DNA from: a virus
Lineage: Duplodnaviria; Heunggongvirae; Uroviricota; Caudoviricetes
Virus record (IMG/VR): IMGVR_UViG_2663762996_000010
Coordinates: 1-34,239 of that record
DNA: 34,239 nucleotides
Reading direction: 5' to 3' (one strand)
Shown here: positions 3,001 to 6,000 of the stretch, piece by piece
How the letters are laid out: each line of letters opens with the position of its first letter
Position numbering within the stretch: the stretch's first letter is position 1
Position numbers: made by a program

Positions 3001-6000
3001 TCTGCGTTTCCGTGCGGTAGGTATACCCCTCAACATCGAGTGTTTCGCAGTGATGCCGATATTCGGTGTAGGCTTCCACCAGCAGCTCGAGCGCACGCGC
3101 ATCAAGCTGAGAAATGATCCCTTCCGCATTCAGCTCTTCCGCCATTCGCCTGAACCAGTACTTCCCCTGAGCCCCTAAATGCTGCGGAATTTTAGGAAGA
3201 CCTTTTTCATCCTTTTTAGCGGTTTTTTTGTGGTCTTTAACGGGGCGCTTTGAGGGGTTACCTCGAATCAAATGCAGGCGTGGCGGGGTTTTCGGAGGTC
3301 CTGACATAATCGGTCTTACCTATCAATCGTTTGTTCACATTTCCAAAAAAAAGTTTTCGAACCTGCGGCGATGTGAGGAAGGGTCAGGCGGCGGTACTGA
3401 ACAGCCAGGGTTGCAGAGATTTGACCCGCCCCTCCCCTGCAGATGGGAGCTGTTATCAATTGATGCGTTCGCGCGCTGTTTTTGCTTTATGACAGGGCCA
3501 GCACAGACTCTGCAGGTTACTGTCTGCATCCGTGCCACCATGAGCTTTCGGAATGATGTGGTCCACAGTTCTGGCTTCAACGGCTCTCCCATTGCGCAGG
3601 CAGTTCTGACACAGATGATTATCACGCTTCAGTATGCGCGCACGTATGGCATCCCATTTCGAGCCATAGCCACGCTGGTGGCGGCTCAGTCCGCGTTGAT
3701 GCTGTACCCATCCTTCGCCACGATGTTTATCGCAGTAACCAGAACTGTCTGTGGTTGTACCTGCACATCCACGCTTACGGCAGGCGCGTGGGATTAGTGC
3801 TGGCATGTTTCGCCCTTATATAAATCAAAGGTGACCTGCATTGAGTATCTCCATGGAATAGATTTGCTGCTGATATGAGACAGATCAATAGACTTCATGA
3901 GCCAACGGGTGTAGATATTACTTTTTACTTCAGAGGGTTAACTCATGGATATTAAAGATAAAATCAATACCATTTTGTTATGTGACATTGCCATCCACCT
4001 AGGTATCGAAACTGATATTGATCCACAGCTTGTTAAATATGCTGTGTCATCTGGTAATGATTGGGTTATCAAGGCCGAATATTCACATTTGGATGTTGAC
4101 GAACCAAGTAAAGAAGATCGTGATTTTGTTACTGCTGTCTTGAATATGTATCGCGGACTTTCCAATGCTTTCAGGAAACTTAGTGATGACGAGCAAAAAG
4201 AATTAGTCCGTGACCATCATCTAAAAATACATGATGGGGCAATTCAGCTCCCAGGTTTCGACGGTAATAATGAATGCGATTACTTCAGTATCATTGAGGC
4301 ATATCAGAAAATTGATCGCTTCCCCGAACAGAAACAGCCCATTGCCAATACTCATTCACGTACAGAACATCTCTATAACGCAATGCTTGATGAGTTTAAG
4401 AAAATTGACGCTGTAAATCGAAGCTGGGATTTATCGAAGGAAGAACTGGCATCCATTCTTTCCACAGCTCCACGCAGTTTCTAAGTGCTTTAGGCGGGTT
4501 TCCAACCCGCCTTATTATGCTCGTATATAGAGAAGGAAGCACCCAAATTAACCAGCGCGGATTTCTTTTCCTCAATACGGCTGTTAAGTTCAGCAACTGC
4601 ATGCGGGCGTATGGCCTCAAGAAAAGCACTATATTGATAGGCAGACTGGATTGTCACACCAAGCCCTGCACCACTTTCCAGTATACCTTTCTGTCGCTGT
4701 AGCTCTTTCATCTCGTTATAGATGTAATGTGCGTTACTTAGGTTTTCTACGTTCACGCCCTAAGTTCTTCCTGCAGTTAGCCTGCACTGATTTGTTATGC
4801 GCCAATATGTCCCGCTTCGTCTGTTGCATTATCATAAGTAATAGCGTAGGTTGACACCTTGGCTCTCTTTCGCCACCGGCGAATCTTTAGCGGATTATCC
4901 TTGGCCGGTTTTTATCTGAGACATTGCTCACGAATGTATAGCTGTGCCCCTTCCAGTTGCTTCTGCATCGTCATCAACCGTTCTCTGAGGGTGAAATAAT
5001 CCCGTTCAGCGGTGTCTGCCAGTCTGGGGCTGGTTGCATTATCCACGCTGGTGGGTCCGGTGGCTTCACGCACGGCTGCGGAGCAACTGGCATTGACCCG
5101 CAGGCGCTTACGACCAGCGGCAACATCAGCGCGCAGAGTTTCATTTTCAGCTTTCGCATTGGCTAATTCTCTCGAGTACTTTGCATCGAGCGCAGCAACA
5201 TCACGCTGACGCTGCTGCATGTCAGCGATGGTGGCGGTCAGCTGCTTCAGCTCACTGACTTTTTTATCACGCTGTTCTTTGTAGGTGATGGCGTTATCAC
5301 GGTAATGATTGACCGCCCACGACAGGCAGACGATGATGCAGATAACCAGAGCATAAATAATCGCGGCGACTCTGCTCACTGATCTATTCCCCAACAGGCT
5401 AATGCGCTTTCTTGGTCACGACGAATAACCTGTCCATAGCAGTTATTTGAACGTATGCGGCAATCGCGCCCACCATCTTTTATCCACCAGCGAATCGCCT
5501 CGCATGCGCCCTTACGATCACCAGCATTCAGCCGCTTATAAAACGTCGATGGAAAACACTTACCGGGGCCAATGTTATAGGGACAAAATGACGCGATACC
5601 CGCTTTTTGTGGTTCGGTCAGTGGTACTTTAATATTGCGCTCCACCCATGCCAGCGCCTTATCACGCTCAATGGCGTTGACCTGGTCGCATTTTTCCTTC
5701 GACAGTTTCATACCGGGAAAAACGGGTTTTCCATCCACCATCGTGGCACCCCGACAGATGGTCCAGATGCCGGAACCATCGCGGTATGCCGTTGTGTGGT
5801 TACCTTCTTTTTCATCCAGAAACTGGTCGAGAATATCAGGCGCGGGCGCACCGACGGCAATCAGTGCCAGAACGGCAGCCGACAGGCCGTATCTGATTTT
5901 TGCGTTCATGGATATTTATCAGGATTTATCGGTTTCTGCCCACGGACAGGTTTATCTGTTCCGGTCAGTGACTTAAGGTTGTGATTCCGGAGGAGTCTTC

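What the first reader, a model, noticed from the sequence alone, without database searches (positions are those of the whole stretch)
3808..4911. AT-rich moron with a YfbU-family gene between the lysis and packaging modules
A 179-aa YfbU-like gene sits on the strand opposite to the whole late operon, with its own RBS and a bidirectional terminator shared with a convergent 88-aa ORF. Base composition is visibly lower in GC than the flanking Rz and HNH genes. This is the architecture of a lysogen-expressed cargo gene; a prophage-borne YfbU paralogue could act in abortive infection or superinfection defence (chromosomal YfbU has, to my recollection, been linked to MazF-dependent cell death). No described defence system with this content is known to me.
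Basis: partly seen in the sequence, partly recalled or inferred. Interest (0 to 1): 0.6.

Follow-up and report, generated by a model that had tools for sequence, protein, structure and literature searches.

The report
Prophage cargo gene with YfbU fold
A lambdoid E. coli prophage carries, at the swappable cargo site between its lysis and DNA-packaging genes, a self-contained backward-facing gene for a divergent YfbU-fold protein that is a good but untested candidate for a one-gene anti-phage defence like the lactococcal system Kamadhenu; the small neighbouring ORF is not its partner.

Summary

Near-identical E. coli prophages carry iss/bor, a GNAT gene or nothing at this junction, so it is a variable cargo ("moron") site.

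- **The 88-aa ORF is not a partner.** It is a separate late-strand gene (phrog_5415, normally 76 aa). It occurs mostly without YfbU, and YfbU relatives at 82% identity or less lack it.
- **The hairpin is not bidirectional.** It is conserved with compensatory changes, but only the yfbU side has a U-tract.
- **A defence system with this content exists.** Kamadhenu is a 180-aa single-gene YfbU-domain abortive-infection system from Lactococcus.

One finding is new. Across 49 distinct YfbU-like sequences, down to 28% identity, the gene keeps the same position and orientation whatever the terminase or lysis type.

Function is inferred, not shown. The most likely role is a lysogen-expressed, Kamadhenu-like single-gene defence (about 0.45). 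Novelty: new member of a known kind. Interest is moderate.

The parts
3807..3944 (+). Intergenic region upstream of the YfbU-like gene. It holds a promoter-like block that travels with the gene: TATGAG 3874-3879, -35-like TAGACT 3889-3894, -10-like GATATT 3914-3919 (19-nt spacer) and RBS GAGGG 3933-3937.
   Evidence: The block is conserved in position across homologues at 58-100% protein identity, although the sequence further upstream differs (HNH flank versus Nu1 flank) (alignment A4). The match to consensus is weak, and the sigma-70 scan did not call it. GC is 0.391. Homology with sister prophages ends exactly at 3806.
3945..4484 (+). YfbU-like gene, 179 aa, from a divergent subfamily with the invariant motif GFDGNNE (residues 104-110). 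It is the cargo gene proper.
4492..4512 (+). Stem-loop with a 9-bp stem and 3-nt loop, followed by UAUUAUG on the + strand. It is the probable intrinsic terminator of the YfbU-like gene, starting 8 nt after that gene's stop codon.
   Evidence: dG is -16.2 kcal/mol with z -3.2. The stem is kept through compensatory changes in Klebsiella and other variants (alignment A2). There is no U-tract on the - strand. The consensus terminator scan did not report it.
4490..4756 (-). 88-aa ORF of family phrog_5415, with a GTG start, on the late-operon strand. It is an independent late-strand accessory gene of unknown function. The last 12 codons (4493-4528) are a lineage-specific read-through into the hairpin.
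   Evidence: phrog_5415 matches residues 1-76 of a 76-position profile, E 2e-38. Homologues are mostly 76 aa. The stop codon was lost (TAA to ATA, plus a 1-nt deletion) relative to the Klebsiella version. In E. coli loci L016-L019 it overlaps the stop of the spanin gene and no YfbU is present. dN/dS is 0.08-0.5, and 2 of 8 copies have in-frame stops. The AF2 model is a helical hairpin (pLDDT 78) with a disordered extension. There is no structural match.
4757..4911 (.). Spacer between the Rz stop and the 88-aa ORF. The stretch 4772-4911 is a separate mosaic piece shared with a prophage that carries GNAT cargo instead.
   Evidence: blastn aligns window 4772-5600 to L100 at 96.7% identity. A promoter-like site on the - strand (4857 to 4828, 9/12) and a weak hairpin (4772-4786) are consensus matches only.
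3456..3806 (-). HNH endonuclease gene, the first gene of the packaging module (HNH, TerS-P27, TerL). It forms the left boundary of the cargo site.
   Evidence: Pfam HNH scores 60.4 bits. Homology with sister prophages runs up to 3806.
4912..5394 (-). Rz spanin gene with embedded Rz1 (4974-5159), the last gene of the lysis cassette. It forms the right boundary of the cargo site.
   Evidence: Pfam Phage_lysis scores 167.8 bits. Homology with sister prophages resumes at 4913-4942.

Best explanation
Segment 3807-4911 fills a variable cargo site at the junction between the lysis and packaging modules of a lambdoid (HK97-head-type, HNH/TerS-P27) E. coli prophage.

Its active component is a single, self-contained transcription unit. 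It consists of a promoter-like block, an RBS, a 179-aa YfbU-fold gene and a terminator hairpin, all reading antisense to the late operon.

Shown:
- the protein has the YfbU fold;
- the gene is under strong purifying selection;
- it is optional among sister prophages;
- it has no conserved partner gene;
- across deep divergence it always occupies this junction in this orientation.

Inferred:
- it is expressed from the repressed prophage;
- it acts as a single-gene abortive-infection-type defence against superinfecting phages, by analogy with Kamadhenu. Kamadhenu is a 180-aa YfbU-domain protein that blocks lactococcal phages without affecting their DNA replication, transcription or translation, and is escaped by a point mutation in the phage's single-strand annealing protein.
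- Speculatively, convergent late transcription would silence the gene during the carrier phage's own lytic growth.

The adjacent 88-aa ORF is a separate late-strand gene. It happens to be linked to yfbU in this lineage.
For: - **Fold and family:**
- **Purifying selection:** dN/dS 0.05-0.14.
- **Moron criteria** as defined in PMC3594210: deviant GC, own terminator hairpin with compensatory changes, and a promoter-like block with RBS that is co-inherited with the gene across different upstream flanks.
- **Replacement polymorphism:** at the identical junction in prophages 92-97% identical in the flanks, the cargo is iss/bor (+ strand), GNAT (+ strand) or nothing.
- **Positional conservation:** of 49 distinct YfbU-like sequences, 30 have terminase on the 5' side and lysis genes on the 3' side, 17 have one of the two recognised, and none is inverted. 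Remote members P0166 and P0175 show the same arrangement, as do Enterobacter, Providencia and Klebsiella loci.
- **No obligate partner:**
- **Precedent for defence by a lone YfbU-domain protein:** PMC11381338, PMC12184496 and PMC13064643.
- **Family members on other mobile elements:** conjugative and small plasmids, once beside an Abi family gene, and a P2-like Yersinia phage.
Against: - There are no functional data for this protein or for any Enterobacterales relative.
- The Kamadhenu sequence could not be obtained, so relatedness beyond the shared Pfam domain, fold and size is untested.
- The protein is only ~21% identical to E. coli YfbU. It is not detected by single-sequence searches, so functional transfer across the family is weak.
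- The promoter-like block matches the sigma-70 consensus poorly (19-nt spacer), and the scan did not call it. Expression in lysogens has not been shown.
- No recognisable catalytic or effector domain is present.
- The other cargo at this site (iss/bor, GNAT) is not anti-phage defence, so the site itself does not imply defence.
- PADLOC gave no hit, though Kamadhenu is not in that database.
Confidence: 0.45

Rival explanations
1. It is a lysogenic-conversion gene with a host-physiology role rather than an anti-phage role. In this reading the prophage YfbU paralogue modulates stress or DNA-damage-induced death pathways, or another host process, in the way iss/bor at the same site modulates serum resistance.
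For: The same site carries iss/bor or GNAT in sister prophages. Chromosomal yfbU is needed for mazEF-dependent death after DNA damage (PMC2646832). Some remote relatives carry an N-terminal RHH-like DNA-binding extension, which hints at regulatory roles in the superfamily.
Against: The protein is only ~21% identical to chromosomal YfbU and fails the equivalog model. The RHH hits are sub-threshold. The only experimentally characterised mobile-element YfbU protein is an anti-phage system.
Confidence: 0.2
2. It is a phage-benefit gene. For example, it could be a counter-defence factor or decoy that interferes with the host YfbU/MazF death pathway during SOS induction. Alternatively, the antisense transcription unit could dampen leaky late-operon read-through into the packaging genes.
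For: The strict position and orientation between the lysis and packaging genes holds across unrelated terminase and lysis types. This is more than a generic hotspot requires. Prophage induction is triggered by DNA damage, the condition in which host yfbU matters.
Against: Sister prophages with nothing at the junction, or with other cargo there, appear otherwise identical in these modules. The gene is rare in isolated phages, at 4 of 50,697 records. Low identity to host YfbU makes mixed oligomers unlikely. Strong purifying selection on the protein argues against a purely transcriptional role.
Confidence: 0.15
3. It is a two-gene system. In this reading the YfbU-like protein and the convergent 88-aa protein work together, for example as a toxin-antitoxin-like or sensor-effector pair.
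For: The two genes are adjacent in every locus where the YfbU-like protein is at least 89% identical to the window copy, including in Klebsiella.
Against: YfbU-like genes at 82% identity or less never have the ORF. Unrelated small ORFs sit there instead. Of 43 distinct phrog_5415 variants, 34 have no YfbU-like gene within 3 kb. In L016-L019 the ORF overlaps a spanin gene with no YfbU present. blastn shows separate mosaic boundaries between 4484 and 4529. The ORF shows relaxed constraint and is broken in 2 of 8 sampled copies next to an intact yfbU-like gene. Convergent orientation on different transcription units is atypical for such pairs.
Confidence: 0.05
4. It is decaying or neutral hitch-hiking DNA with no current function.
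For: The prophage shows signs of decay elsewhere, with three IS1 copies in the early region.
Against: dN/dS is 0.05-0.14 over dS up to ~2. ORFs are intact in 49 distinct variants. The RBS, promoter-like block and terminator are all conserved.
Confidence: 0.03

Closest known systems
Kamadhenu (Lactococcus plasmid pUCCL624_130; Grafakou et al. 2024, PMC11381338; Mosterd et al. 2025, PMC12184496)
   Different: The host phylum differs (Bacillota plasmid versus Enterobacterales prophage). tblastn of this protein against PLSDB found no Lactococcus record at E<=1. The phenotype is known only for Kamadhenu: Abi-like, with escape through SSAP G22 mutations.
Lambda bor / E. coli iss moron at the Rz-to-packaging junction
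   Same: The genomic slot and architecture are the same. iss sits on the strand opposite to the late operon, between Rz and HNH, in a sister prophage with 91-96% identical flanks (L102). It fits the moron definition (PMC3594210). That lambda bor lies downstream of Rz on the opposite strand is established knowledge, not tested here.
   Different: The protein is unrelated. Bor/Iss is an outer-membrane lipoprotein for serum resistance, whereas this is a cytoplasmic helical YfbU-fold protein.
Chromosomal YfbU (UPF0304; E. coli b2294; PDB 1wpb, 4lr3)
   Different: Identity is ~21% and pairwise searches are not significant. The NCBIfam equivalog scores 34.8 against a cut-off of 90. The locus differs: chromosomal yfbU lies between hxpA and yfbV. 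The N-terminal domain is not matched by the sequence profiles.
HK97 gp15-type morons and prophage-encoded superinfection defence genes in general
   Same: It is an independent transcription unit of deviant GC inserted between phage modules, presumed to be expressed in lysogens.
   Different: The protein family and insertion site differ. No phenotype is known here.

Membership tests
Pfam YfbU domain family (PF03887 / UPF0304 superfamily) | Whole-protein score above Pfam's gathering threshold | tested here: met
   46.3 bits against a cut-off of 25, E 6.5e-12, residues 46-172. The family profile A1 hits 1wpb/4lr3 at E 3.8e-9.
Pfam YfbU domain family (PF03887 / UPF0304 superfamily) | Two-domain helical YfbU fold as in PDB 1wpb | tested here: met
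Chromosomal YfbU orthologue group (NCBIfam NF003936 equivalog) | Score at or above the curated equivalog cut-off | tested here: not met
   34.8 bits against a cut-off of 90. BLASTP against K-12 YfbU gives 21% identity, E 0.044.
Chromosomal YfbU orthologue group (NCBIfam NF003936 equivalog) | Conserved chromosomal locus (hxpA-yfbU-yfbV) | tested here: not met
   The K-12 locus is shown. Here the gene lies inside a prophage between Rz and HNH.
Kamadhenu anti-phage system | Single ~180-aa protein consisting of a YfbU domain | tested here: met
   179 aa, with YfbU as the only significant domain. Kamadhenu is 180 aa with PF03887.
Kamadhenu anti-phage system | Acts as a single gene with no obligatory partner | tested here: inconclusive
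   In silico, no neighbour is conserved across the family. Functional sufficiency cannot be tested with these tools.
Kamadhenu anti-phage system | Significant sequence similarity to the Kamadhenu protein itself | not tested
   The sequence was not obtainable. No supplement is held. No Lactococcus hit appeared in the PLSDB tblastn searches or the homologue searches. Kamadhenu has no model in PADLOC or DefenseFinder.
Kamadhenu anti-phage system | Abortive-infection-type phage resistance, with escape through mutations in the phage single-strand annealing protein | not testable with these tools
   These are phenotypes from PMC11381338 and PMC12184496. Plaque assays and escape-mutant sequencing would be needed.
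Moron (independent cargo transcription unit in a prophage; definition in PMC3594210) | Extra DNA relative to closely related phages at the same position | tested here: met
   Sister prophages carry iss, GNAT or only 72 bp at the junction. Homology breaks at 3806/3807 and 4912-4942.
Moron (independent cargo transcription unit in a prophage; definition in PMC3594210) | Base composition different from the surrounding genes | tested here: met
   GC 0.39-0.42 against 0.53-0.54 in the flanks, the lowest ~1% of windows.
Moron (independent cargo transcription unit in a prophage; definition in PMC3594210) | Own terminator | tested here: met
   Hairpin 4492-4512 followed by a U-rich tail on the + strand, dG -16, z -3.2, with compensatory changes among variants. 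It falls just below the consensus scan threshold.
Moron (independent cargo transcription unit in a prophage; definition in PMC3594210) | Own promoter | tested here: inconclusive
   A conserved block with -35-like TAGACT/TGGACT and a -10-like hexamer is co-inherited with the gene. The consensus match is weak, with a 19-nt spacer in the window, and the scan did not call it.
Moron (independent cargo transcription unit in a prophage; definition in PMC3594210) | Expression from the repressed prophage | not testable with these tools
   Requires a lysogen transcriptome or 5'-RACE.
Type II toxin-antitoxin or other two-gene defence pair (YfbU-like + 88-aa ORF) | The two genes are co-inherited across the divergence of either family and co-transcribed | tested here: not met
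   The genes are convergent, not co-directional. Pairing is seen only at 89% YfbU identity or above. 34 of 43 ORF variants lack YfbU. The mosaic boundaries are separate.
Systems in PADLOC-DB 2.0 | Hit to any defence-protein HMM | tested here: not met
   No hit at E<=1 for either protein.

The most novel reading that the evidence does not exclude
The GFDGNNE-type YfbU-like proteins may be a large, unrecognised family of single-gene prophage defence (Abi-type) proteins related to Kamadhenu. At least 871 clusters at 50% identity match the family profile at E<=1e-10.

In lambdoid prophages of Enterobacterales these genes are locked to the lysis/packaging junction, antisense to the late operon. In this reading, the carrier phage's own late transcription switches them off. 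In lysogens they would sense recombination (SSAP) functions of superinfecting phages.
Probability: 0.3. Interest if true: 0.6.

Novelty: new member of a known kind. Interest (0 to 1): 0.4.

Why it matters
If the gene protects lysogens, it would extend the recently described Kamadhenu system from lactococcal plasmids to prophages of E. coli, Klebsiella, Enterobacter, Providencia and relatives. It is present in about 6% of complete E. coli genomes.

It would also provide an E. coli-tractable model for working out what the YfbU fold does. That fold has been a 'conserved unknown' since its structure was solved in 2004.

The strict positional and orientational conservation at the lysis/packaging junction is a concrete, testable clue. 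It bears on how prophages carry potentially suicidal cargo without harming their own lytic cycle.

If the gene has no anti-phage effect, it remains an ordinary uncharacterised moron.

Tried and rejected
- **Obtaining the Kamadhenu sequence for a direct comparison.** All attempts failed, so this is left as not tested.
  - No supplementary text is held.
  - tblastn against PLSDB with this protein, with E. coli YfbU and with Enterococcus plasmid YfbU showed no Lactococcus record in the listed rows.
  - A third homologue search seeded with the Enterococcus protein gave only Enterococcus and unnamed hits.
  - A cluster look-up of ten ~180-aa family representatives gave no informative names.
- **PADLOC scan.** Empty, but uninformative because Kamadhenu is not in that database.
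- **Function for the 88-aa ORF.** There is no Pfam or NCBIfam hit, and the PDB sequence search gave nothing significant. The AF2 model is a helical hairpin, and Foldseek found nothing below E 0.9. No function is assigned.
- **Rfam on 3600-5100.** No RNA family.
- **Two-gene cassette and toxin-antitoxin readings.** Rejected on co-occurrence and mosaic-boundary evidence.
- **Bidirectional terminator.** Rejected, because only the + strand has a U-rich tail.
- **Nearest-ORF strand measure.** It gave 30 of 48 with opposite-strand neighbours on both sides, but it is noisy because the crude ORF caller keeps spurious ORFs. I relied on labelled terminase and lysis neighbours and on strand fractions instead.
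Full report
**1. What is at 3808-4911**

The window's left end is the late region of a lambdoid prophage, all on the - strand:
- TerL 1068-2825, TerS (P27 family) 2825-3307 and HNH 3456-3806;
- then, after the region in question, Rz/Rz1 4912-5394, lysozyme 5376-5909, a YdfR/DUF1327 gene, holin 6328-6543, four tRNAs and Q 7356-8051.

The cI-like repressor, the integrase, tRNA-Ser (the likely attachment site) and the host gene mtfA lie further right.

Between HNH and Rz lie two ORFs:
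- a 179-aa ORF on the + strand (3945-4484);
- a convergent 88-aa ORF on the - strand (4490-4756).

The 179-aa protein passes Pfam's YfbU threshold (46.3 bits against 25) and matches phrog_6084 end to end.

GC is 0.391 for the gene and its upstream spacer, and 0.42 for 3807-4911. The flanks are at 0.53-0.54. This is the lowest ~1% of equal-sized windows in the prophage. GAGGG lies 7 nt before the ATG. The descriptive core of the finding is therefore correct.

**2. The protein is a divergent YfbU-fold protein, not the chromosomal YfbU**

- Single-sequence searches do not connect it to E. coli YfbU. phmmer against the PDB finds nothing relevant, and BLASTP against K-12 YfbU gives 21% identity at E 0.044.
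- It fails NCBI's YfbU equivalog model (34.8 bits against 90).
- A profile of 28 homologues does hit PDB 1wpb/4lr3 (YfbU) at E 3.8e-9 over residues 54-173.
- The family has an invariant GFDGNNE motif, plus C13, W40, H137 and Y144.
- Searched against 1.84 billion representatives, the profile finds 2139 clusters at E<=1e-3 and 871 at E<=1e-10. Most are ~175-190 aa and match full length.
- dN/dS among variants is 0.05-0.14.

**3. It occupies a variable cargo site**

The 1104-bp segment occurs in 307 of 5426 complete E. coli genomes, always chromosomal, and in two induced-phage records.

Searching with HNH + segment + Rz found sister prophages whose flanks are 92-97% identical but whose junction content differs:

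| Locus | Content at the junction |
|---|---|
| L102 | iss (the bor homologue), on the + strand |
| L100 | a GNAT acetyltransferase on the + strand, plus a small - strand ORF |
| L101 | only ~72 bp |

Homology breaks exactly at 3806/3807 (the HNH start codon) and at 4912-4942 (the Rz stop). In each case the cargo gene is antisense to the late operon.

This fits the published definition of a moron: extra DNA, deviant GC, its own promoter and terminator, and expression from the repressed prophage (PMC3594210).

**4. Transcription signals**

*Terminator.* A 9-bp-stem hairpin (4492-4512) begins 8 nt after the yfbU-like stop codon.
- It is stable (dG -16.2 kcal/mol, z -3.2).
- It is kept through compensatory changes in Klebsiella and other variants.
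- A U-rich tail (UAUUAUG) follows it on the + strand only. On the - strand the downstream sequence is UAAAGCAC.
- It is therefore best read as the terminator of the yfbU-like gene, not a bidirectional terminator. The consensus scan missed it narrowly.

*Promoter.* Upstream, a block is conserved in register among homologues of 58-100% protein identity. This holds even where the DNA further upstream is unrelated (HNH flank versus Nu1 flank). The block contains:
- TGTGAG (TATGAG in the window);
- TAGACT or TGGACT (-35-like);
- GATATT, AAGAAT or AAAAAT (-10-like);
- the RBS.

This suggests that a promoter travels with the gene. The match to the sigma-70 consensus is modest, though, and the scan did not call it. 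Expression in lysogens is inferred.

**5. The 88-aa ORF is a separate gene**

- It belongs to phrog_5415, a 76-aa family.
- In the window lineage the stop codon was lost (TAA to ATA, plus a 1-nt deletion). The ORF therefore reads 12 codons further, through the hairpin. That tail is predicted disordered.
- In other E. coli prophages the 76-aa ORF overlaps the stop of a spanin gene and is followed by unrelated small ORFs and Nu1, with no YfbU.
- Among IMG/VR loci, 34 of 43 distinct ORF variants have no YfbU-like gene within 3 kb.
- Conversely, YfbU-like genes have this neighbour only when they are at least 89% identical to the window copy. At 82% or below, other unrelated ORFs take its place.
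- blastn shows separate mosaic boundaries. L016 shares only 4529-4755. L054 and L059 share HNH plus yfbU up to 4484. L100 shares 4772-4911.
- Constraint on the ORF is weaker (dN/dS 0.08-0.5), and two of eight sampled copies carry in-frame stops next to an intact yfbU-like gene.
- Its model is a two-helix hairpin with no informative structural match.

The 'two-gene cassette' is therefore linkage by recent descent, not a system.

**6. A conserved position (new observation)**

The YfbU-like gene sits between the lysis cassette and the small terminase or HNH gene, on the opposite strand. This holds whatever the terminase type (P27+HNH, Nu1/GpA, DUF1441/GpA or other) and whatever the lysis genes. 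It was seen in:
- Enterobacter, Providencia and Klebsiella genomes;
- 78 IMG/VR loci;
- two remote representatives.

Of 49 distinct sequences, down to 28% identity:
- 30 had a recognisable terminase or portal gene on the 5' side and a lysis gene on the 3' side;
- 17 had one of the two;
- 2 had neither;
- none was inverted.

A generic hotspot explains why insertions are tolerated here. It does not explain why one family keeps the site over such divergence.

**7. What it most likely does**

Kamadhenu is a single 180-aa YfbU-domain protein from a lactococcal plasmid that gives abortive-infection-type resistance (PMC11381338).
- It does not affect phage DNA replication, transcription or translation (PMC13064643).
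- It is escaped by a G22 mutation in the phage's Sak-like single-strand annealing protein (PMC12184496).
- It is not in PADLOC or DefenseFinder, so the empty PADLOC scan is uninformative.

Chromosomal yfbU is a 'death gene' after DNA damage (PMC2646832).

Family members also occur on other mobile elements:
- conjugative and small plasmids, once 540 nt from an Abi family gene;
- a P2-like Yersinia phage.

Taken together, the best-supported reading is a lysogen-expressed, single-gene, Kamadhenu-like defence. I put this at about 0.45.

This probability is no higher for three reasons:
- no relative in Enterobacterales has been tested;
- the Kamadhenu sequence could not be retrieved for a direct comparison;
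- the site's other cargo (iss, GNAT) is not anti-phage.

The rivals are:
- a host-physiology conversion gene (0.2);
- a phage-benefit or counter-defence role (0.15);
- the two-gene system (0.05);
- neutral DNA (0.03, contradicted by the selection analysis).

**8. Verdict**

- The moron interpretation is supported.
- The partner gene and the bidirectional terminator are not supported.
- The novelty claim is overtaken by Kamadhenu.

The finding is a new, untested member of a known kind, with an unusually strict positional signature. Interest is moderate (0.4).

Noticed in passing
window 16617-22654: Three IS1 copies (transposase ORFs 17487-17999, 19508-20011, 21373-21876) are interleaved with a duplicated Rha/Ash-type gene (18861-19514, 20726-21379). 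The direct repeats are 100% identical at spacings of 2012 and 1865 nt. This looks like IS1-mediated amplification inside the prophage early region.
   Followed up: partly
window 6836-7145: A cluster of four tRNA genes (Gly-TCC, Thr-TGT, Lys-TTT, Met-CAT) lies on the late strand between Q and the holin gene. A related induced phage record has a three-tRNA version.
   Followed up: no
window 25668-26835: The integrase gene abuts tRNA-Ser(CGA), and the host gene mtfA (Peptidase_M90) follows. This marks the prophage end and the likely attachment site.
   Followed up: no
proteins P0192, P0193, P0221, P0235 (remote relatives): Some YfbU-like relatives of ~230-240 aa carry a ~50-aa N-terminal extension with sub-threshold ribbon-helix-helix (CopG) matches (17-20.4 bits against a cut-off of 20.5). 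This hints at a DNA-binding fusion in part of the superfamily. One such gene sits in a non-phage chromosomal context (L107).
   Followed up: partly
window 3945-4484 (protein residues 38-147): There is a sub-threshold Pfam match to the Cfr10I/Bse634I restriction endonuclease family (18.4 bits against a cut-off of 27). It is not backed by the structure comparison.
   Followed up: partly
window 4772-4911; L100 2083-2222: The 140 bp after the Rz stop are shared at ~97% with a prophage that carries GNAT cargo instead. A mosaic joint therefore lies inside the reported coordinates.
   Followed up: yes
L103 (NZ_CP070162.1) 839-1354: In another sister prophage a different 171-aa hypothetical gene lies antisense between HNH and TerS. 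This is a second small cargo slot in the packaging region.
   Followed up: no
L021 (E. faecium plasmid) 5001-6038; L105 (A. lwoffii plasmid) 593-2620: More than 250 Enterococcus plasmid records carry a 172-aa YfbU family gene followed by a co-directional 170-aa hypothetical gene. An 8-kb Acinetobacter plasmid has a YfbU family gene 540 nt from an Abi family gene.
   Followed up: partly
L110 (Yersinia phage vB_YenM_324) 3956-4534: A P2-like (Peduoviridae) phage carries a 32%-identical YfbU-like gene after its tail-fibre and baseplate genes, near the genome end. This is a different phage type and a different slot.
   Followed up: no
L048 6585-6812; L031 4445-4675: Copies of the phrog_5415 ORF next to intact YfbU-like genes carry in-frame stop codons. 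The small ORF is therefore dispensable in those prophages.
   Followed up: yes
window 22935-25406: An 823-aa early-left ORF has a C-terminal Rv2179c-like 3'-5' exonuclease domain (226 bits). The rest of the protein has no Pfam match.
   Followed up: no
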